Below are positions 25,017-34,137 of a stretch of 64,000 bases of DNA, in pieces; position 1 is the first letter of the stretch, and the number at the start of each line of letters is the position of its first letter. This stretch comes from Magnetospirillum sp. WYHS-4 (GTDB taxonomy: Bacteria > Pseudomonadota > Alphaproteobacteria > Rhodospirillales > GLO-3): contig JAMOBD010000006.1 in the NCBI GenBank assembly GCA_039908345.1, positions 2,329 to 66,328 on the forward strand, read 5' to 3'. Under the pieces are notes generated by a model. It was given only the letters and a program-made list of their open reading frames with translations. It searched no databases and was not told where the DNA came from. The translations under genes were made by a program, and so were the position numbers.

Positions 25017-25481
25017 ATGAGTGAAACATCGGCTCCGCGCCTTGCCCAACTGGGCGCCAGGATCGACCTGCCGGCCTCGCCCGAGGCGGCGGTGCTGGAA
25101 TGCGTGCCCAATCCCCATCCCGGCGAAACCTATCTGGTGCGCTTCACGGCGCCTGAGTTCACCTCGCTCTGTCCCGTGACCGGACAACCGGATTTCGCCC
25201 ATCTGGTGCTGGACTACGTACCGGCCGGGAAGCTGGTGGAAAGCAAGTCGCTGAAGCTCTACCTGGGAAGCTTCCGCAACCACGGCGGCTTTCACGAGGA
25301 CTGCACCCTCGCCATCGCCAAGAAGGTCCGTGTGGCCGCGGGGCCGCTGTGGCTGCGCATCGGCGGCTACTGGTATCCGCGCGGCGGGATTCCCATCGAC
25401 GTGTTCTGGCAGTCGGGGCCGCCGCCCGCCGGGCTGTGGCTGCCCGACCAGGGCGTGCCGGGCTACCGGGGGCGCGGGTAA
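25017..25481 (+). CDS. queF: NADPH-dependent 7-cyano-7-deazaguanine reductase QueF (unimodular type)
   Basis: ORF 24927..25481 trimmed to MSETSAP. Motifs [13 protein letters not shown] and ESKSLKLYL. Confidence 0.9.
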
Positions 25482-25491
25482 GGGCGGGACC

Positions 25492-26232
25492 ATGTGGACC
25501 GACGCGGTCGACTTGCGGGACTTCTACGCCACCAGCCTGGGGCGGGTGGCGGGGCGGGTCATCGCCAACCAAGTGCGCCAGATATGGCCCGACGTCAAAG
25601 GGATGAACGTCCTGGGCCTGGGCTTCGCCACGCCCTTCCTCAACCCCTTCCGCAACGAGGCGGCGCGGCTGCTGGCGGCCATGCCGGCCCAGCAGGGCGT
25701 GCTGCCCTGGCCGACGGAGGGGCGCAACCTGACGACCCTTGTGGACGAAGCCGACCTGCCGTTTCCCGACCTGTCCATGGACCGGGTATTGCTCGTCCAC
25801 GGCCTGGAATGCGCCGAACCTCTGCGTCCCATGATGCGCGAGATCTGGCGGGTGCTGGCCGGCGGAGGCCGGCTATTGGTGGTGGTGCCCAACCGGCGCG
25901 GGCTCTGGGCCCGTTTCGAGCGCAGCCCATTCGGCCACGGCCGGCCCTATTCATCGGGCCAGCTTTCCCGCGCCTTGCGCGATTGCCTGTTCACCCCGGC
26001 CCAGTCCTACCCGGCATTGTTCGTCCCGCCCTTGCGCTCGCGCACGGTTCTGAGTACGGCCCGCGCATGGGAAACCCTGGGTCAGCGCTGGTTCCCGGCG
26101 TTCGGTGGGGTAGTGATGATCGAGGCCACCAAACAGATCTACGCCGGCCACCTCGCCACCCCCCTGCCCAAACGCGCCAAGGGCTACCTCCCTTTAGCGC
26201 AAAGACGCACGACACCGCAGGCGAGGGGGTAG
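25492..26232 (+). CDS. class I SAM-dependent methyltransferase
   Basis: 3' part of ORF 25330..26232 from MWTDAVDLRDFY. VLGLGFATP (motif I-like) and the DRVLLVHGLE...LAGGGRLLVVVPN pattern. Confidence 0.7.
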   Translation: MWTDAVDLRDFYATSLGRVAGRVIANQVRQIWPDVKGMNVLGLGFATPFLNPFRNEAARLLAAMPAQQGVLPWPTEGRNLTTLVDEADLPFPDLSMDRVLLVHGLECAEPLRPMMREIWRVLAGGGRLLVVVPNRRGLWARFERSPFGHGRPYSSGQLSRALRDCLFTPAQSYPALFVPPLRSRTVLSTARAWETLGQRWFPAFGGVVMIEATKQIYAGHLATPLPKRAKGYLPLAQRRTTPQARG

Positions 26233-26273
26233 GCGAGGCGATTCGTAATCAGCCGTTGATTGCTGATGACACA

Positions 26274-26279
26274 TATAAT
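26274..26279 (+). promoter_or_regulatory. candidate -10 hexamer (TATAAT) just outside the left inverted repeat
   Basis: Perfect TATAAT 55 nt upstream of ATG 26335. No well-spaced -35 found (TTGATT is only 12 nt away). Confidence 0.3.
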
Positions 26280-26313
26280 ATACCATGCGATGGAGTTTAG
26301 GGTATGTATGAAA

Positions 26314-26339
26314 GATAACTAAGAATTATCGAAGATGGA
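26314..26339. repeat. left copy of a perfect 26-bp inverted repeat (GATAACTAAGAATTATCGAAGATGGA)
   Basis: Exact reverse complement of 32005..32030. Contains the ATG (26335) of the STAND gene and an internal dyad GATAA-N7-TTATC. Confidence 0.95.
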
Positions 26340-29300
26340 AGGTCACATTTACAGTCCTCAGGACCTACTGGATATGCGGTGGGACCGTTTTGAGACGCTG
26401 GTCGTTGATACGATCCGTCAATTATACGGCCAATACCAGATTTCGACCGAGCAAACGTCGCTTAGCCATGATGGCGGCCGGGATGCAGAGTCCCATCATG
26501 TGCTGGCGATCGGACTTGGCGAAGACCTTTCTGTGAGCGTAAGAGTATTTCTCGAGGTAAAGAAAAGATCGACCGAAAATGTTGGCAAAGGTGATATTGG
26601 ATCTCATCTTATAGACGCCTTCGCCAACAAAGTAACGAAGATCATTTTCGTCACTAATAGTGATTTTTCAGAAAATTTACCTTTGTGGATTGGCGCGTTT
26701 TGCGCACCGCTTAATATTCAGTTCAGCTTGATTAATGGCGTACGCCTTATTAAACTGTTAAACAACGAGATTGGAAATCCACAGGTTCCAGATAGGACAG
26801 TCGATGATCAGATCATCGGCAAGGTAACCTTCTCGCTTTCTCCAACCGATGCGCTTCCGAGCAGCGCCAAATGCATGGTACGGCCTGATCGGCCAGTTTT
26901 TGCCATCATTGATGTCGCCATCGGTGAAGACGTGGCGCCGTTCTATGCCAAATTATCCATGAGGCTGATCGATGAGGACGCGGCCTCGATATTCGGCATA
27001 AATGACACGCAGTCACAGCCAATTCTCCTGTCTCCGGGCACACGCCGGCGCTGGGTTTTCGCCATTTGGCCTGGCCTGGCCGGACACTGGGACGGCTGTG
27101 ATTTCAACATCGACCAGGAAGGTTTCCCGAGCCCGTTACGGCTGTCGGTCATCAATTCCTTCCAGGTCTCTGAAATCGGCCTTCAGCCGATGATGGTCGG
27201 TGGTCAGAAGACCGCCTACAAGCAGATCCAATCCGCATTGAATACTTGGCGCAACACTGGTGGAAGCGCCCTTCGCATATTGCTTTCCCCCGGCGGTTTA
27301 GGCAAATCGTTTCTGATCGGATGCCTTAGGCGGGATATCCAGTCATGGGGTATCAGGACGTTGATGCTTGATGGGGAAGCCATCGAGTCGGATACGGCAC
27401 TGATAACGGCTAGCTTCACCACCTTGTTTCCGTTTGCACGCAACTCTTTCGAGCCGGGGCTGAAACCAGCCCTGCTCCGCTGGCTGGAATGCTTGGATCT
27501 GTCGCCGCAGCTACGCCGGCTCGTTGCCGATGATCTGTGTGATTCCGGCAGGTTACGGGCCGATAATTACAATCCGGCTATTCGGGCTCAATTATTGGCG
27601 GCCCTTCTCGCCGAGGCCGGAGCGGCACGGGGCCTGGTATTCATTTTCGAAGACCTTCACAAGGTTCCTCCCTCTGTTTTGTCCCTGCTGGCGGACACGC
27701 TGCGCCAACTCCGCTCGACCGGAATGGGCAACATCTTCCTTTTGCTGACATCGCGTCCGTTCTCTGACAGCGGCACCCACGATCTTGCTCGCGACTGGCT
27801 GCAGCGGCTTCAGAAAATCTCGGCGCTGGCCGAGGATGCGCTGCTGCATTTGCGCCCCCTTCAAGACGATGAAGCCCGGCAGCTTCTGCGCAGCACGGTG
27901 CCCACTCTGTCGGAGGCGCAGACTGAAAGCATTATCCAGCAAGTGGGAACATCGCCGTTCAATCTTCGAGAAGCGGTTCTTTATCTGAAGCTGTTGGGGC
28001 TTTTGGGATATGTCGGAACCGGGCAGACCCCGGTTCTTTTACGGCCGGACAAGTTAAACGCGCTGCTTGGTCATGACGGGTTGAAAACCACCACGCAGAA
28101 AAGACTGCAGGTGTTCTTTAAGAACCAACCCTCATGGCTGCAAAAGATGGTTGAGGCAGGCGCCTGTTATGGTCGTCAGTTTCCATTCCGGGAGACCGCC
28201 GCCGTCGCCCTCATGCCGGACAGCGAAGACGCACTGGACGCTTTGGATGAATGCGCTCGTTGGAGCATCGTCCTTCCGGTGCCTGGCTGCGCTGAGTTGA
28301 TCGAATTCGACCATGATCTGGTGCGCGCGGCCCTGCTGAGCGGATTGGCTCCGCACAAGCATCAAAGACTGGCCAGTGGATTGCTGGCCGAGCTGGAAGC
28401 TGACGCCGACGCTTTGCTGCTGTCGTCGCTTGCTTATCAGGCAGGCCAGGCGGAAAAGGCCTTCACCTTCGCCCGAACGGCTGCCAAGGCTGGCAGCGAA
28501 CGGGGGCGTCCTGCGGATGCATTGCGCGCCAACTACATTGCATTACTGACACTCGATCCGGCATGGGCGAGCCAGAATGAGGGGGATGACAGCTGGATTG
28601 ATCTCGCGATTCAGGTCGCAGCTCCGGCTCGCCGCGACTTCGACAATTGGCAGGCACGCGACCGTGAGGCGCTGGCAATCCTGCTGGATAATCTTCAAAG
28701 CCTGGGAAGCGTCTCGTCGGGAAGTGGACGATTGAGCGATGCCATCCTCAGCGAAGCGAGAATGGTCGCCGAACGGCTGCAAGACCATGGATGCATTGCC
28801 GCTCTCACGGCCATGCAGGGGCGAATGCTGTTCGAGCAAAATGACGTCGCCAAGGCCTTGGCTCACCATGAAGAGGCCGAGCGGATTTTCAACGAACAGG
28901 GGCTGATGCGAAATATTGAGCGTGCTGAAAATCTGATCCGATTGGCGATCTGCCTTCGACAGAACGGGCGCACGGAGGATTCCTTGAACGCCCTTGGCCA
29001 GGCAATCAGTCATCGGCCGAAAGCCGCCTGGTCACTGCTGAACAAGGTCCGCTCGAACCTGGGAGCCATTTATCTGCGATCAGACTGGACCGTCGTACGC
29101 TATCACTGGGAACGGCAGCTCCGCTCTGCCAGGGTCCACGGCCTGCTGTCGCGCCAGGCTCATGCCCTTGCCAGCCTATCCTTTATCAACCTGTTTGACG
29201 GGCGTTTAGCCGAAGGCCGCCGGCAGGCAGAGGAAAGTCTTCTGATCGCCCGCCGACACGAGATGGAAAACACCGCGCTGCGGTGTGATCTCAACCTTTC

Positions 29301-29748
29301 CGTTGCCTGGCTGATGGAGGGCAATGCCGAAGCGGCACTGCAATGCTTGGGCGAAGCGGAAGCCATTGCTTTGCGGCATAATGTCGGCCGCCGTCTCTGG
29401 CGGGTATATGCCAATCTCGCCACCACCTGGGAGATACTGGGTGATGACGCCAAGGCGGTCGCGCATGACATCCAGACACTGACCTGCCTGGATGCGACCA
29501 ATTGGGAAGCGGACAGGATTGCCCGTCATGGGCGCGAGCTTCTGCCATTGATCAATCTTGCGTCACGCACTCTGGCGAATCCAGACACTTATGGGGCTGC
29601 ATTGGCGCTGATGAATCCCGCATGCCGTGACGGGTTGCTTCTGCTGGCGCAAAACCTGGAAGATGGTCAGGCCACCGTCTTATCCCCCGTCAATCTGAAA
29701 TATCGTGTCCCGATCTATGGGCGTCACCGTTTCCTCATCACCGAATGA
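26335..29748 (+). CDS. STAND NTPase with an N-terminal Mrr/PD-(D/E)xK nuclease-like domain and C-terminal TPR-like repeats (Avs/AVAST-like)
   Basis: ORF 26335..29748. N-terminus has FETLVVDTIRQLYG, GGRD(50), LE(74)VK(76), IIFVTNSDFS and LINGVRLIKLL, which fits the Mrr_cat layout. Walker A SPGGLGKS (res ~318-325), Walker B LVFIFEDLH (~434-442), LLLTSRP. The C-terminal ~500 aa are helical repeats. Confidence 0.8.
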   Translation: MEGHIYSPQDLLDMRWDRFETLVVDTIRQLYGQYQISTEQTSLSHDGGRDAESHHVLAIGLGEDLSVSVRVFLEVKKRSTENVGKGDIGSHLIDAFANKVTKIIFVTNSDFSENLPLWIGAFCAPLNIQFSLINGVRLIKLLNNEIGNPQVPDRTVDDQIIGKVTFSLSPTDALPSSAKCMVRPDRPVFAIIDVAIGEDVAPFYAKLSMRLIDEDAASIFGINDTQSQPILLSPGTRRRWVFAIWPGLAGHWDGCDFNIDQEGFPSPLRLSVINSFQVSEIGLQPMMVGGQKTAYKQIQSALNTWRNTGGSALRILLSPGGLGKSFLIGCLRRDIQSWGIRTLMLDGEAIESDTALITASFTTLFPFARNSFEPGLKPALLRWLECLDLSPQLRRLVADDLCDSGRLRADNYNPAIRAQLLAALLAEAGAARGLVFIFEDLHKVPPSVLSLLADTLRQLRSTGMGNIFLLLTSRPFSDSGTHDLARDWLQRLQKISALAEDALLHLRPLQDDEARQLLRSTVPTLSEAQTESIIQQVGTSPFNLREAVLYLKLLGLLGYVGTGQTPVLLRPDKLNALLGHDGLKTTTQKRLQVFFKNQPSWLQKMVEAGACYGRQFPFRETAAVALMPDSEDALDALDECARWSIVLPVPGCAELIEFDHDLVRAALLSGLAPHKHQRLASGLLAELEADADALLLSSLAYQAGQAEKAFTFARTAAKAGSERGRPADALRANYIALLTLDPAWASQNEGDDSWIDLAIQVAAPARRDFDNWQARDREALAILLDNLQSLGSVSSGSGRLSDAILSEARMVAERLQDHGCIAALTAMQGRMLFEQNDVAKALAHHEEAERIFNEQGLMRNIERAENLIRLAICLRQNGRTEDSLNALGQAISHRPKAAWSLLNKVRSNLGAIYLRSDWTVVRYHWERQLRSARVHGLLSRQAHALASLSFINLFDGRLAEGRRQAEESLLIARRHEMENTALRCDLNLSVAWLMEGNAEAALQCLGEAEAIALRHNVGRRLWRVYANLATTWEILGDDAKAVAHDIQTLTCLDATNWEADRIARHGRELLPLINLASRTLANPDTYGAALALMNPACRDGLLLLAQNLEDGQATVLSPVNLKYRVPIYGRHRFLITE

Positions 29749-31465
29749 CGACTTTGCAGAAAGCCTCTTGGTAGCTGGCGAGCAGTTGCATATCCCATGA
29801 CCGGATACGCCAATCCCCGCGGGCAAACCGCCATTGAGCGTTGAACAAGGGAAAAATCGCCATCCACAGAGCGCCCAGGAACAGGTCCTCATCGCTTTTC
29901 GCCAATTCGGCCAAGCGGCAAAGCATGGCATAGGGGGATGGGGATGACTGGTGGGCATGCTGGTCGTGGAACCAATGCGCAAGATCGTGCGGCCCCGCAT
30001 AGAAACCGGCATGATCAAGATCGCAAACAGCCGGACTGCCATCAAGACGACGCATAAGATGTTCGCGTTTCATGCTGCCGTGCTGGAGACGCGGCAAGAC
30101 ACGCGACAATGGCCGACAATGGGCAAGAAAGCGCACAAGCCCCTTCGCGCGCAGGGCGAACTCGGGCGGAAACGACCACGCATCTCGCTTCAACGTTTCC
30201 TCAAGGCGGAATAATTCCACCTGCGGATGGCATTTGCGCAAGCGCAGCCGCCCCCCTTTTAAGCATTGAGCACTTAACTGTGCGGCTGCCCGGTCGAACT
30301 GCTGCACGGCTTCCTGCATATCGCTGGCCACCGACATGCCGTCCAGGGCGGACAGATAAGCCGTTGCCCCATCATCCTTCACCACGAACAGAGTCTGGAA
30401 CTGCCGGGAAGCGGCCATCATGAGTTCCTCAGCTACAGCCGGCTCGGCTTCATGATCTTCCAGCAGTTTCTCCTGGACCAGCAAACCTGCTTCCTCGTCC
30501 GCCGCGACAACACGTGGGGCAACCGGCACTGCCGTCAGAAGGCAAGCCATCTTCACCCGCTCCGGGGCGATGGGGGGGGCATCCATCTCAAGCGGGCTGG
30601 GCACCAGACAGGTCAAGGAGGGAGGGCGCTCTTGATGAATCTTGAGGAAGAATTCGCCTTTCTGCGATGAGATAAGGAAGCTGGGCGTCGGACTGGACGA
30701 GACATCTTTCCAGCTGTCGATCCGCCCTCCCAACAACCTCTCCACCAAAGGCCGGCGAGCCTCTATCAGGTTATCATTGATGGATAAGGTTGCCCCGGGA
30801 AGCGAGGGATCGCTGTTCGACGGCGCCAGAAGTTCCCCGTAAAGCCCGAGATAGCGTTCCGCCACCGCATCGAGTGAAAAACGATCCCGACTCCACAGCG
30901 CGGCGTTGTTTCCCATCCAGCGGCCCAAACGGTCGTTTCTGACAAACTGCGCCAGGGCGGCAGCAAGTCCTGGCGCATTCAGCCGATCCACCAAGTAACC
31001 GTTCACGTCATGGGCAATGATGTCCTGAAGCCCTCCCGTCCTGGTGGCGACCACGGGCGTTCCGCACATCATCGCCTCAACGGCGACCATTCCAAACTGT
31101 TCGCGCAAGGAGGGGAGACAGACGACGGTACTGCGGCTGTAGATTTCGGGCAGGGAATAACCATCGACCCGGCTCCATATCTCAAATCGGCCGGCTTCGA
31201 TGGCATGACGTATATTTTCCGTAGCACGCAGCAAGGTGTTCTCAAGATCGGCCGCCTCTTCTGCCGTTCCGCCGACAATGCGCACGCGGAATGGCGGAAG
31301 ATCCACCGATAGCAAAAGCTCCACCGCATCAATGAAAACAGCCAAGCCCTTACGGGAATCGACCAGTCGTCCGACGTATGAAATCGTCGGCACTTTCCGG
31401 GCGACGGCTAAATATCTGGGAGTCGATTCCATAGGGGATGATTGAAACTGATTGTGGTCTGACAT
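29738..31465 (-). CDS. GT4 glycosyltransferase C-terminal half fused to an APH/choline-kinase-like (protein-kinase-fold) domain; downstream fragment of a frameshifted gene
   Basis: ORF 29738..31465. YVGRLVDSRKG and SLREQFGMVAVEAMMCGTPVVATRTGG (GT1/GT4 C-domain). Then FFLKIH, LLVQEKLLE and HGSMKREHL...CDLDHAG (kinase-like, Asp of HGD replaced). Confidence 0.65.
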   Translation of the reverse strand: MSDHNQFQSSPMESTPRYLAVARKVPTISYVGRLVDSRKGLAVFIDAVELLLSVDLPPFRVRIVGGTAEEAADLENTLLRATENIRHAIEAGRFEIWSRVDGYSLPEIYSRSTVVCLPSLREQFGMVAVEAMMCGTPVVATRTGGLQDIIAHDVNGYLVDRLNAPGLAAALAQFVRNDRLGRWMGNNAALWSRDRFSLDAVAERYLGLYGELLAPSNSDPSLPGATLSINDNLIEARRPLVERLLGGRIDSWKDVSSSPTPSFLISSQKGEFFLKIHQERPPSLTCLVPSPLEMDAPPIAPERVKMACLLTAVPVAPRVVAADEEAGLLVQEKLLEDHEAEPAVAEELMMAASRQFQTLFVVKDDGATAYLSALDGMSVASDMQEAVQQFDRAAAQLSAQCLKGGRLRLRKCHPQVELFRLEETLKRDAWSFPPEFALRAKGLVRFLAHCRPLSRVLPRLQHGSMKREHLMRRLDGSPAVCDLDHAGFYAGPHDLAHWFHDQHAHQSSPSPYAMLCRLAELAKSDEDLFLGALWMAIFPLFNAQWRFARGDWRIRSWDMQLLASYQEAFCKVVIR

Positions 31466-32009
31466 CAGGATACAGCCTCTCTAACGCATCTTTCTCGTTA
31501 CGGCTCACGCATATGAGGGTGTCGGCCTCGTTGAAAACACGCCGCTCCCAAACATCCCTGACGCCATCGAAACAAGAGGCTTCCTCTCCCAGCTCGATGC
31601 GGGTCCGCCCCAGTGAAAGCAAGTGGTGGACATGGCGTCGAGCAATAACGGGGACCAGTCCGATGCCAACGGCACCAGACAGCCAGTTGCTGGTTTGAAC
31701 GATATCGAAGGTCTTCCCTGAAAGCAGACCGGCAAGCGCATCGGCAAGTTCGTCCCGCAAACTTCCCATTGAATGGTGGTCCATTTCCGTCGGGCTGCCC
31801 ACTTCCAGCCGATATAGACGGCAAAGGGGGCCTAGCTCCTGTATCCGCGGCTTACACGAGCTATTCAACCGAGTGACAATGGTCAGGTCATGGCCACGAC
31901 GCACGAATTGTCGAGATAGGTCGAAAAAGAAGGCATGTGAGCCCCCGAATCGCCCTGCGCCTGGTGGGTCGAAAGGGTCATCAGTAAGGGTAAGCAGCAA
32001 AATATCCAT
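31350..32009 (-). CDS. GT4 glycosyltransferase N-terminal half (upstream fragment of the same frameshifted gene)
   Basis: ORF 31350..32009. MDILLLTLTDDPFDPPGAGRFGGSHAFFFDLSRQFVRRGHDLTIVTR resembles MshA/SPS-type GT4 N-domains. Ends IIPYGIDSQIF, then leaves the frame that continues in ORF 29738..31465. Confidence 0.65.
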   Translation of the reverse strand: MDILLLTLTDDPFDPPGAGRFGGSHAFFFDLSRQFVRRGHDLTIVTRLNSSCKPRIQELGPLCRLYRLEVGSPTEMDHHSMGSLRDELADALAGLLSGKTFDIVQTSNWLSGAVGIGLVPVIARRHVHHLLSLGRTRIELGEEASCFDGVRDVWERRVFNEADTLICVSRNEKDALERLYPDVRPQSVSIIPYGIDSQIFSRRPESADDFIRRTTGRFP

Positions 32010-32030
32010 CTTCGATAATTCTTAGTTATC
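32005..32030. repeat. right copy of the perfect 26-bp inverted repeat
   Basis: TCCATCTTCGATAATTCTTAGTTATC is the reverse complement of 26314..26339. Contains the ATG of the GT gene (32009) and the GAT AAC TAA end of the recombinase gene. Confidence 0.95.
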
Positions 32031-32969
32031 ACTCCCCCCTCTCCTCCTCACGGCCCCCTCCATCACCTCGCGGAGGCTGGTGTCGCTGACGTGGGTGTAG
32101 ATTTCGGTGGTGGCCAGGTTGGCGTGGCCCAGGAGTTTCTGGACGAAGCGGATGTCCACTCCCGCCTCGATCAGGTGGGTGGCCGCGGTGTGGCGGAGCA
32201 TGTGGGGCGTGATGCGGCGGGTAAGGCCGGCGTCCTCGGCCGCGCGGCGCAGCAGGATGCGCACCGTCTGCGGCGTGGCGGTGGCGCCGCCGGAGGTGAG
32301 GAACAGGCGCTCGCCCAAGGGGCCCGTGGCCGGGCGTGCGGCCACATAGGCCCGCAGCAGGCGCCGGGTGGGTTCCTCCACCAGAAATGCCCGGCGCTCG
32401 CGGTTGCCCTTGCCGATGATCCGGATGGTGCCGTCCTCCAGGTCGATGTCGCTCAGATGCAGTGCCGTCAATTCCCCCACCCGCATTCCGGTCGCGTAGA
32501 GCATCTCCACGGCCAGCCAGGCGGTCAGGCGTTCGAATCCGCCGGGCGAAAGGCGGGCCGGCCGGCCGGGAGGAGGAAGGGGCAGACGCAGCGTCCGGAA
32601 CAGGGCCGCCATCTCGCCACGCGTCAGCCCGCGCGGCAGCCGGCGGGGCAGGCGGACCTGAAGGTCCAGGCGGTGGAAAGGGCTGGCCGGAATCTCGTCC
32701 TCCAACTCCAACCAGCGGTACATGGCCTTCAGGCAGGCGATACGGCGCTTGGCGCTGGCCGGCTTGAGGCCGCGCCGGTCTTGCAGATGTTCCAGATAAC
32801 CGCGCAGATGCTCGCGGTCGCAAGCCGCCAATGGCCGGTCGGGCCCCGCGTAGGCCCGGTATTCCTCCAGGTCCTGGGCGTAGGCCCGTAGCGTGTTGGC
32901 CGACAGGCCCTTGGCCACGCGGCAATGGCGCAGGAAGGCCGCGCAGGCCTCCGCCACCGTCTCTGTCAT
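32022..32969 (-). CDS. XerC/XerD-family tyrosine site-specific recombinase
   Basis: ORF 32022..32969. SAM-like N-domain plus catalytic landmarks ATGMRVGEL (R), KGNRER (K), HMLRHTAATH (HxxR) and LGHANLATTEIYTH (H, Y). Confidence 0.9.
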   Translation of the reverse strand: MTETVAEACAAFLRHCRVAKGLSANTLRAYAQDLEEYRAYAGPDRPLAACDREHLRGYLEHLQDRRGLKPASAKRRIACLKAMYRWLELEDEIPASPFHRLDLQVRLPRRLPRGLTRGEMAALFRTLRLPLPPPGRPARLSPGGFERLTAWLAVEMLYATGMRVGELTALHLSDIDLEDGTIRIIGKGNRERRAFLVEEPTRRLLRAYVAARPATGPLGERLFLTSGGATATPQTVRILLRRAAEDAGLTRRITPHMLRHTAATHLIEAGVDIRFVQKLLGHANLATTEIYTHVSDTSLREVMEGAVRRRGGSDN

Positions 32970-33138: not shown

Positions 33139-34137
33139 TTGGCGTTTCCCGGCGGAGCCCGTGGCATGCTATGGTGGGCCATGCGCCTCCTTCTCGTTCT
33201 TGGTTTCCTGGGCCTGACCCTTCCCGCGCTCGCCGAGCCGATTGCCGTCGACGCCGAGGCGATTCCTCTCGATCCCCGCGATCCGGCGGTGACGACGGTC
33301 GGGGCGCTCCATTACCGGGGCGGCCTGGTCCTGAGGGCTCCCGGTCGGAAATTCGGCGGTCTTTCCGATTTGACGGTGAGCCTCGACGGGCGCGACCTGA
33401 CCGCCATCTCCGATGCCGGACGGCGCCTGTCGCTAGGGCTACGTTACGACGTGACCGGCCGGCTGACGGGAATCGGCGAGGCCGATCTGTCGCCCTTGCC
33501 GGGGCTCGACGGGCGGCCGTTGCGCGACGACAAAAAGGAGGGCGACGCGGAAGGGCTGGCTCCGGCGCCCGACGGCGGTTTCGTCGTTTCCTTCGAGCAT
33601 CGCCACCGGCTCTGGCACTATCCGGCCGGTTGGGAGACGCCGCGCGAATTGATTCCGCCCCGCGAACTGGCCCTGGCACCGCGCAACAGCGGCATCGAAG
33701 CCCTGGCGCGCCTGGCGGACGGCCGTCTGTTGGCCCTGACCGAAAGTTTCATGACCCAACGCGGCGTGGTCGGCTGGGTCGGCAACGAGGAAACCGGCGA
33801 CTGGGCGACCCTGACCTACGAGACCGTGGGGGCTTTCTATCCCACCGGCGCCACGGTCCTGCCCAACGGCGATGTCCTCGTACTGGAACGCCGCTATACC
33901 TTGATCGGCGGGCCGGCGGCGCGCCTGGTCCGCGTCGGCCGCACCGCCTTCCAGCCGGGGATCAGCATCAAGGGCGACGAAGTGGCACTCCTGGCCCCGC
34001 CGCTTGCGGTCGACAACATGGAAGGACTTGCCATGCGCCGGACCCCGGCGGGCGGGGTTCTGCTCTATCTGCTCTCCGACGACAATTTCCAGGGTTCGCA
34101 ACGGACCCTGCTTCTGCTTTTCGAATACCGTCCATAG
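33139..34137 (+). CDS. secreted esterase-like/phytase-like family protein
   Basis: ORF 33139..34137. Signal peptide MRLLLVLGFLGLTLPALA, plus GGLSDL, EGLA and LSDDNF motifs. True start probably ATG 33166 or 33181. Confidence 0.65.
   Translation: MAFPGGARGMLWWAMRLLLVLGFLGLTLPALAEPIAVDAEAIPLDPRDPAVTTVGALHYRGGLVLRAPGRKFGGLSDLTVSLDGRDLTAISDAGRRLSLGLRYDVTGRLTGIGEADLSPLPGLDGRPLRDDKKEGDAEGLAPAPDGGFVVSFEHRHRLWHYPAGWETPRELIPPRELALAPRNSGIEALARLADGRLLALTESFMTQRGVVGWVGNEETGDWATLTYETVGAFYPTGATVLPNGDVLVLERRYTLIGGPAARLVRVGRTAFQPGISIKGDEVALLAPPLAVDNMEGLAMRRTPAGGVLLYLLSDDNFQGSQRTLLLLFEYRP

What the first reader, a model, noticed from the sequence alone, without database searches (positions are those of the whole stretch)
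26314..32969. Perfect 26-bp inverted repeats containing two start codons bracket a 5.7-kb cassette next to a tyrosine recombinase: candidate whole-gene inversion switch
Seen directly: GATAACTAAGAATTATCGAAGATGGA (26314-26339) recurs as its exact reverse complement at 32005-32030 (26/26), exactly at the borders of the AT-richer segment. Each copy contains the ATG of the gene reading inward: the + strand nuclease/STAND gene at 26335 and the - strand glycosyltransferase gene at 32009. Both genes therefore share an identical 21-nt leader plus ATGGA. The right copy also holds the last two codons and the stop (GAT AAC TAA) of the XerC/D-type recombinase gene, which reads straight into whichever gene lies at that end. 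A TATAAT hexamer sits just outside the left copy. The two cassette genes converge and overlap by 11 bp (29738-29748) with no terminator, so transcription of one runs antisense to the other. Inference: recombination between sites in inverted orientation would flip the cassette and swap which gene is joined to the recombinase transcript and which to the left-flank promoter, without changing any coding sequence. That would be a phase-variable choice between an Avs-like defence protein and a glycosyltransferase/kinase-like gene. I do not know of a described switch with this architecture.
Basis: partly seen in the sequence, partly recalled or inferred. Interest (0 to 1): 0.9.

Follow-up and report, generated by a model that had tools for sequence, protein, structure and literature searches.

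The report
Invertible gene cassette beside Xer-like recombinase
The 26-bp inverted repeats are real recombination sites of the neighbouring recombinase, and this locus belongs to a large, apparently undescribed family found in many bacterial phyla in which a short conserved site lets a foreign two-gene cassette be flipped, and over evolutionary time replaced, next to a resident recombinase gene.

Summary
A perfect 26-bp inverted repeat (26314-26339 / 32005-32030) brackets a low-GC 5.7-kb cassette, and the recombinase stop codon lies inside the right copy.

It is not a one-off. Relatives of the recombinase in many phyla carry the same 17-bp core, GATAAC-TNNN-AATTATC. It almost always occurs as one inward-facing pair, and an inward-reading start codon follows each arm within a few bases.
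- All 65 pairs share their central four bases within the pair, although 12 or more variants exist across loci. This is the signature of a tyrosine-recombinase crossover region.
- Two Gallionella genomes carry an identical cassette in opposite orientations between collinear flanks.
- Several metagenome contigs join one flank to both cassette ends.
- A 96.5%-identical copy of this window's cassette assembled elsewhere as a contig running exactly from repeat to repeat.
- Homologous platforms carry unrelated cassettes.

Cassettes typically pair a STAND-type NTPase, or another large protein, with a tailoring enzyme.

Inversion is strongly supported. Its effect on expression remains inferred. I found no published description of this family.

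Verdict: a new variant of a known kind (tyrosine-recombinase inversion switch) with integron-like cassette turnover.

The parts
26314..26339 (+). Left (recombinase-distal) arm of the inverted repeat. The core recombination site GATAACTAAGAATTATC is 26314-26330, followed by CGAAG and ATGGA (start codon of the Mrr-STAND gene).
   Evidence: Core motif shared with more than 170 loci. Central TAAG is identical in both arms.
32005..32030 (-). Right (recombinase-proximal) arm. The core site is 32014-32030. It contains the recombinase stop codon (TAA, 32022-32024) and, 12 nt downstream, the ATG of the GT4 N-domain gene (32007-32009).
32022..32969 (-). Xer-like tyrosine recombinase, 315 aa, with host-like codon composition. 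It reads into the cassette.
   Evidence: Pfam Phage_integrase 5.5e-41 plus SAM-like N-domain. Below the XerC, XerD and integron-integrase cut-offs. R163, K187, H256, R259, H282 and Y291 are invariant in 20 relatives. GC3 0.87. 100% identical to a protein of the MAG Magnetospirillum sp. WYHS-4.
26335..29748 (+). Cassette gene 1: 1137-aa protein with an Mrr-type nuclease domain, a STAND-like AAA_16 NTPase and TPR repeats.
   Evidence: No PADLOC or NCBIfam family. Orthologues sit in the same cassette type in L210-L218.
31350..32009 (-). Cassette gene 2a: GT4 glycosyltransferase N-terminal domain, 219 aa.
   Evidence: Pfam Glyco_trans_4_4 / Glyco_transf_4. A conserved separate ORF in L210-L216.
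29738..31393 (-). Cassette gene 2b: GT4 C-terminal domain (GT4-conflict family) fused to a choline-kinase/APH-like fold. 551 aa, GTG start set by homology (the ORF is open up to 31465). It overlaps gene 2a by 44 nt and gene 1 by 11 nt.
   Evidence: AlphaFold2 mean pLDDT 90.3. Foldseek finds MshA/PimA for residues 1-200 and LicA choline kinase (4r7b) for the rest.
26233..26313 (+). 81-nt AT-rich non-coding spacer outside the distal arm, containing TATAAT at 26274-26279. It is a possible but unproven outside promoter reading into the cassette.
   Evidence: No consensus promoter in the scan. It is not homologous to the distal flank of the related locus L211.
25330..26232 (+). Host methyltransferase-domain gene on the distal flank, reading towards the cassette. 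Context only, not part of the element.
33139..34137 (+). Host phytase-like gene, divergent from the recombinase. The same neighbour sits beside the closest recombinase relative (L209), so the recombinase is resident. Context only.

Best explanation
The locus is a member of a widespread family that I could not find described. Each member consists of three things: a Xer-like tyrosine recombinase, a compact dif-like core site (GATAAC-TNNN-AATTATC) present as one inward-facing inverted pair, and a compact foreign cassette of two convergent transcription units between the sites.

Shown: the sites are conserved, the central bases co-vary perfectly between partners, and cassettes of this family are found inverted in nature.

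Inferred mechanism: the recombinase binds the GATAA / TTATC half-sites and exchanges strands in the asymmetric centre. Because the partner sites are inverted, this flips the 5.7-kb cassette without changing any coding sequence.

The site also serves as an expression junction. It carries the recombinase stop codon and an AGGA/AAGA purine stretch, and an inward ATG follows within a few bases. The cassette gene lying next to the recombinase is therefore fused to the recombinase transcript. In this assembly that is the split GT4/kinase-like pair. The other gene (Mrr-STAND) faces the distal flank.

The two units converge and overlap with no terminator. The more strongly driven side probably silences the other by antisense transcription, so inversion would toggle or re-weight the two products. 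This step is inferred, not shown.

Over longer time the same inverted sites let whole cassettes be replaced at a resident platform. This resembles engineered cassette exchange between inverted lox sites, and explains the foreign composition of the cassette here.
For: 1. The repeat is exact and not expected by chance.
2. 53 of 81 sources examined (80 genome loci of recombinase relatives plus the window) carry ATAAC-N4-AATTAT next to the recombinase.
3. 58 of 60 adjacent site pairs face inwards. The other 2 lie between tandem cassettes. None is in direct orientation.
4. The central four bases are identical within all 65 pairs: 32 of 32 in the unbiased genome set, against 5.8 expected and a maximum of 14 in 10,000 shuffles. 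12 variants occur across loci. Tandem cassettes use different variants.
5. L018 and L019: the flanks are collinear (100% and 96.8% identity) while the 3,598-bp cassette is 100% identical but reverse-complemented, with the switch point inside the site.
6. Contigs L158, L160, L187 and L204 join the same flank to both cassette ends.
7. 27 of 144 sites lie within 30 nt of a contig end, against about 2.6 expected.
8. L210, a contig assembled from an independent sequencing run, equals window 26314-32030 exactly. It is 5,717 nt, 96.5% identical with no gaps, and has the 26-nt repeat at both ends. L218 and L214 show the same pattern. 11-12 homologue clusters have a longest contig of 5.66-5.92 kb.
9. 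In most loci where the recombinase reads into the cassette, its stop codon lies inside the core.
10. 72 of 88 arms are followed by an inward ORF of at least 80 aa starting within -1 to +28 nt.
11. Cassette turnover: one platform (flanks 83-95% identical) carries four different cassettes, and L045 and L048 differ likewise. The window cassette has GC3 0.57-0.65, against 0.87 for the recombinase. The closest relative, L209, has the recombinase and the same neighbour but no cassette.
12. The catalytic residues are intact.
Against: - No reads from this MAG were available, so both orientations are not shown for this exact strain.
- The window-specific site was absent from the JGI metagenome collection.
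- Promoters could not be located. The consensus scans found fewer sites than shuffles did.
- In the second geometry the recombinase diverges from the cassette, so coupling to the recombinase transcript is not universal.
- Cargo types are conserved as pairs. This fits a cooperating two-gene system at least as well as two alternatives.
- At replaced cassettes, homology on the distal side ends 15-730 nt outside the site. Exchange may therefore not be purely site-to-site.
- The assembly-break argument is indirect.
Confidence: 0.78

Rival explanations
1. The locus is mainly a cassette-capture and exchange platform, like an integron or natural recombinase-mediated cassette exchange. The inverted arrangement exists because inverted sites cannot delete the cassette but still allow double-crossover replacement. 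Inversion is a neutral side reaction. Both units are always expressed from both flanks and work together as one two-gene system.
For: - Different cassettes sit at homologous platforms.
- Cassettes have lower GC than their flanks.
- The same cassette type occurs on two platform geometries.
- Empty or degenerate platforms exist.
- Cargo families are conserved as pairs.
- GT4 and STAND are linked in predicted conflict systems in PMC8195603.
Against: - No donor form of a cassette was seen. There were no pairs in viral contigs and only one plasmid hit for the recombinase.
- Distal replacement boundaries lie outside the site.
- Cassette proteins are mostly more diverged than the recombinases, so exchange is not frequent.
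- Convergent overlapping genes without a terminator are an odd design for co-expression.
- This reading does not exclude a regulatory role for inversion.
Confidence: 0.3
2. The sites in this particular strain are a fossil. The cassette was acquired and perhaps flipped in the past, but the system no longer recombines here.
For: No direct read evidence for this MAG. The closest relative, L209, has a decayed site. Degenerate sites exist elsewhere.
Against: - Both arms are perfect over 26 bp.
- The recombinase ORF and its catalytic residues are intact.
- A 96.5%-identical cassette in another sample keeps the identical 26-bp arms despite 201 substitutions elsewhere, and it assembled as a repeat-to-repeat contig.
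Confidence: 0.1
3. The repeats are terminal inverted repeats of a non-autonomous transposon that carries the genes as cargo and moves by transposition.
For: Perfect terminal inverted repeats bracket foreign DNA.
Against: - The flanks ATGAAA and ACTCCC give no target-site duplication.
- There is no transposase, and only one pair in the window.
- One arm always abuts or overlaps the stop codon of the same recombinase family.
- In-place inversion occurs with fixed flanks.
- Covariation of the central bases is a recombinase-site property.
Confidence: 0.03
4. Chance similarity or an assembly artefact of the MAG.
For: The source is a metagenome-assembled genome.
Against: None of 100 shuffles gave a match. 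The same architecture appears in more than 60 independent loci from isolates and MAGs. An independent assembly reproduces the cassette and its arms.
Confidence: 0.01

Closest known systems
Promoter invertons run by tyrosine recombinases (E. coli fimS with FimB/FimE, Bacteroides Mpi/Tsr, C. difficile RecV switches)
   Same: Short inverted repeats, an adjacent or nearby tyrosine recombinase, reversible inversion, and both orientations present in populations.
   Different: There the flipped segment is a few hundred bp carrying a promoter, and the genes stay fixed. Here the promoters, if any, stay outside and 1.6-7.4 kb of whole genes flip. The site also overlaps the recombinase stop codon and the translation start region. 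(Knowledge of the known systems is my own; PMC6083910 and PMC5386303 appear.)
Mycoplasma vsa / vsp / vpma loci (HvsR, Xer1)
   Same: A Xer-like recombinase beside the locus, recombination sites at the 5' ends of the alternative genes, and inversion that moves a different gene to a fixed expression site.
   Different: Those loci shuffle many paralogous surface lipoprotein genes within one genus. Here there are two unrelated convergent units, one site pair, cassettes that are replaced, and a core site conserved across phyla. (My own knowledge; not tested here.)
pdif (dif) modules of Acinetobacter plasmids
   Same: Cargo modules are bracketed by dif-like Xer sites in inverted orientation. Modules occur in different contexts and orientations. 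The ATAA...TTAT core resembles dif.
   Different: pdif sites are 28-bp XerC/XerD sites served by the chromosomal XerCD and are mainly on plasmids of one genus. Here a dedicated single recombinase gene is physically fused to the site, the core is 17 bp, and the site supplies start signals. (PMC6449649 and PMC13141974 appear.)
Integrons
   Same: A resident tyrosine recombinase next to a primary site, promoterless foreign cassettes expressed from the platform side, and cassette turnover at a fixed platform.
   Different: There are no attC hairpin sites and no direct-repeat arrays. The integron-integrase model scores 126 against a cut-off of 265. There is one cassette per site pair (two in tandem in L073 and L094), and it is invertible.
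Engineered recombinase-mediated cassette exchange with inverted or heterospecific lox/FRT sites
   Same: Inverted identical sites prevent excision and allow inversion and double-crossover replacement. Different spacers keep neighbouring cassettes separate, as in L073 and L094.
   Different: That is a laboratory design. A natural counterpart has not, to my knowledge, been described.
Shufflons and Type I hsdS invertons, and gene-altering programmed inversions (PMC9881135)
   Same: Site-specific inversion between oppositely oriented coding sequences, often next to a recombinase gene.
   Different: Those repeats lie inside coding sequences and swap gene parts. Here whole genes are swapped and no protein sequence changes. 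The search rules of PMC9881135 require repeats of at least 22 bp with at least one repeat strictly inside a CDS, so they would miss most members.

Membership tests
Tyrosine site-specific recombinases (Phage_integrase superfamily) | Catalytic domain with the R-K-H-R-H/W-Y residues, plus an N-terminal SAM-like core-binding domain. | tested here: met
   PF00589 5.5e-41 and PF02899 6.8e-16. R163, K187, H256, R259, H282 and Y291 are invariant in 20 relatives.
XerC / XerD chromosome-dimer resolvases | Score above the NCBIfam equivalog cut-offs for XerC or XerD. | tested here: not met
   TIGR02224 scores 222.8 against a cut-off of 335.15. TIGR02225 scores 220.3 against 329.6. Sources name relatives only 'tyrosine-type recombinase/integrase'.
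XerC / XerD chromosome-dimer resolvases | Acts at a single 28-bp dif site at the replication terminus, with FtsK. | not testable with these tools
   The site here is paired, inverted and cassette-associated. Terminus position is unknown.
Site-specific DNA inversion switch (inverton) | Inverted repeats bracketing the segment, with a site-specific recombinase gene nearby. | tested here: met
Site-specific DNA inversion switch (inverton) | Both orientations occur in nature with unchanged flanks. | tested here: met
   Family level: L018/L019, L143/L148, and the same flank joined to both cassette ends in L158, L160, L187 and L204. For this cassette the evidence is indirect only: the repeat-to-repeat contig L210.
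Site-specific DNA inversion switch (inverton) | Orientation changes expression of a gene. | not testable with these tools
   No transcript data. The promoter scans were uninformative.
Integron | IntI-type integrase carrying the integron-specific insertion. | tested here: not met
   TIGR02249 scores 126.1 against a cut-off of 265. NF011946 scores 81.8 against 435.
Integron | Cassettes bounded by attC sites, arranged as a direct array downstream of attI. | tested here: not met
   Sites are 17-bp cores in inverted pairs. No direct pairs among 60 adjacent pairs.
pdif / dif modules | 28-bp XerC-XerD binding sites with a 6-bp centre, alternating in orientation, on Acinetobacter plasmids, served by the host XerCD. 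| tested here: not met
   Conservation is confined to 17 bp with no signal outside. A dedicated recombinase is present. The context is chromosomal. The inverted arrangement is shared.
Transposon with terminal inverted repeats | Target-site duplication and a transposase, or multiple dispersed copies. | tested here: not met
   The flanks differ, only two copies of the repeat exist in the window, and no transposase domain is present.
Avs / known STAND anti-phage defence systems | Match to a curated defence-system model. | tested here: not met
   No PADLOC hit for any window cassette protein. 8 of 10 other cargo proteins also had none. Domain content (Mrr_cat, AAA_16, TPR) is only similar.

The most novel reading that the evidence does not exclude
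A previously unrecognised, phylum-spanning gene-cassette system comparable in scope to integrons. A dedicated Xer-like recombinase acts on a 17-bp site that serves at once as its own gene's stop signal, as the crossover site and as the translation start region. The system holds exchangeable two-gene 'sensor NTPase plus tailoring enzyme' conflict cassettes. It flips them to toggle between the two products and swaps them by natural cassette exchange between inverted sites. Naturally occurring spacer variants act as orthogonal site sets.
Probability: 0.4. Interest if true: 0.92.

Novelty: new variant of a known kind. Interest (0 to 1): 0.82.

Why it matters
If confirmed, this matters in four ways.
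1. It adds a widespread class of whole-gene inversion switches in environmental bacteria (Alpha-, Beta- and Gammaproteobacteria, Acidobacteriota, Chloroflexota, Nitrospinota, Verrucomicrobiota). Existing inverton searches miss it because the repeats are short and straddle start codons.
2. It defines a new guilt-by-association marker for uncharacterised two-gene systems: STAND NTPase with ATP-grasp, GT2/GT4/GT9 or carbamoyltransferase; pentapeptide protein with a PLP enzyme; methyltransferase with an unknown protein. Almost none of these are in defence databases.
3. It offers a natural example of cassette exchange between inverted sites.
4. It provides a compact single-protein recombinase with a 17-bp site and at least a dozen natural spacer variants, which could be a useful genome-engineering toolkit.

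Tried and rejected
- Exact-protein look-ups of the window's recombinase and STAND protein found nothing.
- A megablast of the locus against plasmids hit only the flanking methyltransferase gene.
- tblastn of the recombinase against plasmids gave a single Methylobacterium hit, so the element is not plasmid-typical.
- The window-specific 22-mer is absent from JGI metagenome contigs.
- The core motif gives only 8 single hits and no pairs in 2.9 million viral contigs, so the element is not phage-borne.
- L176 is a chance match in AT-rich DNA and was excluded.
- Consensus promoter and terminator scans gave fewer hits than shuffles and were not used.
- A logo of the outer flanks of non-recombinase arms showed only a weak A-A-n-T-A signal at -8 to -4 and no clear -10/-35 elements.
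- The test for cassette transfer by identity was mostly negative. Cargo is usually more diverged than the recombinases, except for L067 against L073/L079.
- No tRNA gene or Rfam family lies near the locus, which rules out a tRNA-targeted island.
- The C-terminal domain of the GT protein had no PDB sequence match and was resolved only by fold comparison.
- Eight literature searches found no description of this architecture. The papers read in detail do not cover it.


Full report
**1. Observation**

The 26-nt sequence GATAACTAAGAATTATCGAAGATGGA lies at 26314-26339, and its exact reverse complement at 32005-32030. With up to three mismatches allowed these remain the only two copies in the 64-kb window, and none of 100 dinucleotide-preserving shuffles produced a match.

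The arms contain the ATG of a + strand 1137-aa ORF (26335-29748) and of a - strand ORF starting at 32009. The right arm also contains the last two codons and the stop of a 315-aa recombinase ORF (32022-32969, - strand). The converging ORFs overlap at 29738-29748, and there is no terminator-like site at that junction.

The segment between the arms has lower GC than its flanks. Its genes have GC3 of 0.57-0.65. The host-like ORFs elsewhere in the window have 0.80-0.93, and the recombinase gene itself has 0.87. The cassette is therefore compositionally foreign and the recombinase is not.

**2. The genes**

- The recombinase has the Phage_integrase catalytic domain and a SAM-like N-domain. It scores well below the curated cut-offs for XerC, XerD and integron integrases. 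All six catalytic residues are invariant in an alignment with 19 relatives. It is 100% identical to a protein of the MAG Magnetospirillum sp. WYHS-4.
- Cassette gene 1 has Mrr_cat, AAA_16 (STAND-like) and TPR domains.
- The 'glycosyltransferase' is two overlapping ORFs. One is a 219-aa GT4 N-domain. The other is a 551-aa protein made of the GT4 C-domain (GT4-conflict family) plus a domain without sequence matches.
- An AlphaFold2 model of the 551-aa protein (mean pLDDT 90.3) matches MshA/PimA over residues 1-200 and pneumococcal LicA choline kinase over the rest.
- The two-ORF split with its 44-nt overlap recurs in all homologous cassettes fetched. It is a conserved feature, not a frameshift.
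- No cassette protein matches a PADLOC defence model.
- The flanking genes are housekeeping: QueF, a methyltransferase, a phytase-like protein and NorQ. No tRNA gene or Rfam element is nearby.

**3. The locus belongs to a family**

I fetched 80 genomic loci encoding relatives of the recombinase at 29-54% identity. A scan for inverted repeats anchored at the 3' end of the recombinase gene found the same core in locus after locus.

The pattern ATAAC-N4-AATTAT occurs in 53 of 81 sources. These come from Alpha-, Beta- and Gammaproteobacteria, Acidobacteriota, Chloroflexota, Nitrospinota, Verrucomicrobiota and others. The same 16-mer gave only 8 single hits and no pairs in 2.9 million viral contigs.

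Across all loci, 58 of 60 adjacent site pairs face inwards. The other two lie between tandem cassettes, and none is direct. The span is 1.6-7.4 kb, median 2.8 kb. Conservation is confined to about 17 bp, G-ATAAC-TAGG-AATTAT-C, with no signal further out. The core has a dif-like ATAA...TTAT dyad around an asymmetric centre.

**4. Evidence that the cores are working recombination sites**

Covariation. The central four bases vary among loci, with 12 variants in the unbiased genome set. They are identical between the two arms in all 65 pairs. In the genome set this is 32 of 32, against 5.8 expected and a maximum of 14 in 10,000 partner shuffles. Identity of the overlap region between partner sites, while the sequence itself is free to vary, is the established requirement of tyrosine recombinases. 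Where two cassettes lie in tandem (L073, L094) they use different centres. This would keep them from recombining with each other.

Natural inversion. Two Gallionella MAGs (L018, L019) have collinear flanks at 100% identity over 10.9 kb and 96.8% over 6.4 kb. The 3,598-bp cassette between them is 100% identical but reverse-complemented, and the switch point lies inside the shared 20 nt. L143 and L148 show a related cassette inverted relative to the recombinase. Homologous cargo pairs sit in either orientation relative to the recombinase across loci, for example L014 against L049 and L048 against L053. In the STAND cassettes the NTPase is proximal in about 6 loci and the enzyme in about 12.

Mixed populations. 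Contigs L158, L160, L187 and L204 attach the same outer flank to both ends of the cassette, and the second copy runs to the contig end at 57-126 nt. Because the repeats are shorter than the assembler k-mers, this requires reads joining that flank to either cassette end. In addition, 27 of 144 sites lie within 30 nt of a contig end, against about 2.6 expected, and several contigs run exactly from site to site.

**5. Evidence for this particular cassette**

A homologue search with the 575-aa ORF found about 68 clusters of about 557-aa proteins. For 11-12 of them the longest contig is 5.66-5.92 kb, which is the cassette length.

The best hit lies on L210, a contig assembled from run SRR4235382. 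It is 5,717 nt long and aligns to window 32030-26314 end to end at 96.5% identity without gaps. It begins and ends with the same 26-nt repeat.

In a k=31 assembly graph (the k value is my knowledge of how that collection was built), a 26-nt inverted repeat cannot by itself end a contig. A break exactly at the outermost shared base at both ends means each cassette end is joined to two different flanks in the reads. This is indirect but specific evidence for both orientations in a close relative of this strain.

L218, a JGI contig, is bounded by a 23-nt repeat. L214 starts at the first shared base of the L213 repeat. Both show the same behaviour.

**6. The site as an expression junction**

In most loci where the recombinase reads towards the cassette, its stop codon lies inside the core. 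It is the TGA of TGATAAC, the TAA of GATAAC, or the TAG/TAA of GATAACTAG as in this window.

Of 88 arms, 72 are followed by an inward ORF of at least 80 aa that starts between -1 and +28 nt from the core. The start often overlaps it, as in AATT-ATG. The conserved centre, TAGG-A, resembles a Shine-Dalgarno element. That would explain why a crossover region is conserved across phyla, but this is my inference.

The convergent genes usually overlap by 2-37 nt or are separated by a few bases (coordinates).

A second geometry exists, in Acidobacteriota and also for this cassette type in L212, L215 and L216. There the recombinase lies 117-510 nt outside one arm and reads away from it.

**7. Cassette turnover**

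One platform, with flanks 83-95% identical, carries four different cassettes:
- STAND + ATP-grasp in L001.
- A distant STAND + ATP-grasp pair in L158.
- An aminotransferase-like protein + pentapeptide protein in L102.
- A methyltransferase + an unknown protein in L169.

All four cassettes have lower GC than their flanks. L045 and L048 likewise share flanks but not cassettes.

L209 carries the closest recombinase relative (76% identity). It keeps the divergent phytase-like neighbour but has no cassette, only a half-site followed by a long palindrome. L002 has about 160 nt between a degenerate proximal site and an inverted distal site.

The recombinase and its site therefore behave as a resident platform, and the cassette as replaceable cargo.

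Two caveats apply. Homology on the distal side ends 15-730 nt outside the site. Cargo proteins are mostly more diverged than the recombinases, so exchange is occasional and its mechanism is not established.

**8. Cargo theme**

Cassettes pair a large protein with a small-molecule or polymer-tailoring enzyme.
- The large protein is a STAND-like NTPase (with or without Mrr nuclease or TPR), a pentapeptide-repeat protein, a CHAT protease, or an unknown.
- The enzyme is an ATP-grasp/Ddl-like ligase, GT2, GT4, GT9, a carbamoyltransferase, a methyltransferase, GNAT, a 2OG-Fe(II) oxygenase, KAS III, a CDP-alcohol phosphatidyltransferase or a PLP enzyme.

The pairings are conserved at 20-40% identity, which suggests a functional link. 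PMC8195603 predicts GT4 domains as effectors coupled to STAND NTPases in conflict systems, but does not mention recombinases or inversion. PADLOC recognises almost none of these proteins.

**9. Mechanism proposed**

Shown:
- The sites are conserved.
- The centres co-vary within pairs.
- Inverted alleles exist.
- Mixed orientations appear in assemblies.
- Cassettes are replaced at platforms.

Inferred:
- The adjacent recombinase is the enzyme that catalyses the reaction.
- The gene next to the recombinase is co-transcribed with it and translationally coupled to it.
- The convergent, terminator-less layout makes the more strongly transcribed side dominant, so inversion toggles or re-weights the Mrr-STAND protein against the GT4/kinase-like pair.

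Not resolved: where the outside promoters are, and whether the two products act together or as alternatives.

**10. Comparison and novelty**

In outline the system works like a tyrosine-recombinase inverton. It is closest in logic to the Mycoplasma Xer1/HvsR loci, where inversion brings alternative genes to a fixed expression site. It also shares features with pdif modules (cargo between inverted dif-like sites), with integrons (a resident recombinase and foreign promoterless cassettes) and with engineered cassette exchange between inverted lox sites. It fails the defining tests for XerC/XerD, integrons, pdif modules and transposons (see the membership table).

Eight full-text searches found no description of this family. 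The published systematic search for gene-altering inversions used filters that exclude it: repeats of at least 22 bp, with at least one repeat strictly inside a CDS.

I rate it a new variant of a known kind. It is of high interest because of its breadth, its compact multifunctional site and its cassette turnover.

Noticed in passing
window 29738-32009 (-): The GT4 glycosyltransferase is naturally split into a 219-aa N-domain ORF and a 551-aa ORF (C-domain plus a choline-kinase/APH-like fold with an atypical HGSxKxxH...CDxD motif). The 44-nt overlap is conserved in all homologous cassettes. Whether the two ORFs are joined by programmed frameshifting or work as two subunits is open.
   Followed up: partly
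L209 10925-11045: The closest recombinase relative (76% identity, same phytase-like neighbour) has no cassette. After its stop codon come a half-site, GATAACTAG, and a perfect palindrome with arms of about 38 bp. This may be a decayed or 'closed' platform, or a strong terminator.
   Followed up: no
L002 10945-11140: In Roseomonas genomospecies 6 only about 160 nt separate a degenerate proximal site (GATAACTAAGAATTCC) from an intact inverted distal site. This looks like an empty platform.
   Followed up: no
L073 4759-9441; L094 103-5853: Two cassettes lie in tandem beside one recombinase, each pair with its own central tetranucleotide (TACG and TGGG; TGCG and TAGG). These are natural heterospecific sites that should keep the cassettes independent.
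   Followed up: partly
L001 / L158 / L102 / L169: One gammaproteobacterial platform, with flanks 83-95% identical, holds four different cassettes. All have lower GC (0.31-0.40) than their flanks (0.48-0.55).
   Followed up: yes
L213 13785-17671; L215 820-7343: Copies of the window's cassette type sit next to ParA, a replication-initiator-like gene and a TrwC relaxase (L213), or next to ParA, a Gp49/HTH pair, IS66 and a second integrase (L215/L216). Some platforms therefore ride on conjugative or integrative elements.
   Followed up: no
L058 around 1489-1510: A variant site, GATAACTGAGGGTTATC, is a perfect dyad (GATAAC / GTTATC) with a 5-nt centre. It shows the half-sites clearly and suggests that spacer length can vary.
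   Followed up: no
L059-L079, L045, L048, L053, L212, L215: A second geometry: the recombinase lies 117-510 nt outside one arm and reads away from the cassette. The arm next to it is usually preceded by TTTGG and the far arm by AGTAnn, a weak asymmetry of the outer flanks that remains unexplained.
   Followed up: partly
L003, contig end at 11004: The Azospirillum brasilense HAMBI_3172 contig ends 56 nt after the recombinase gene, just past a variant site (GATAACTAATAATTCT). This isolate assembly also breaks at the site.
   Followed up: no
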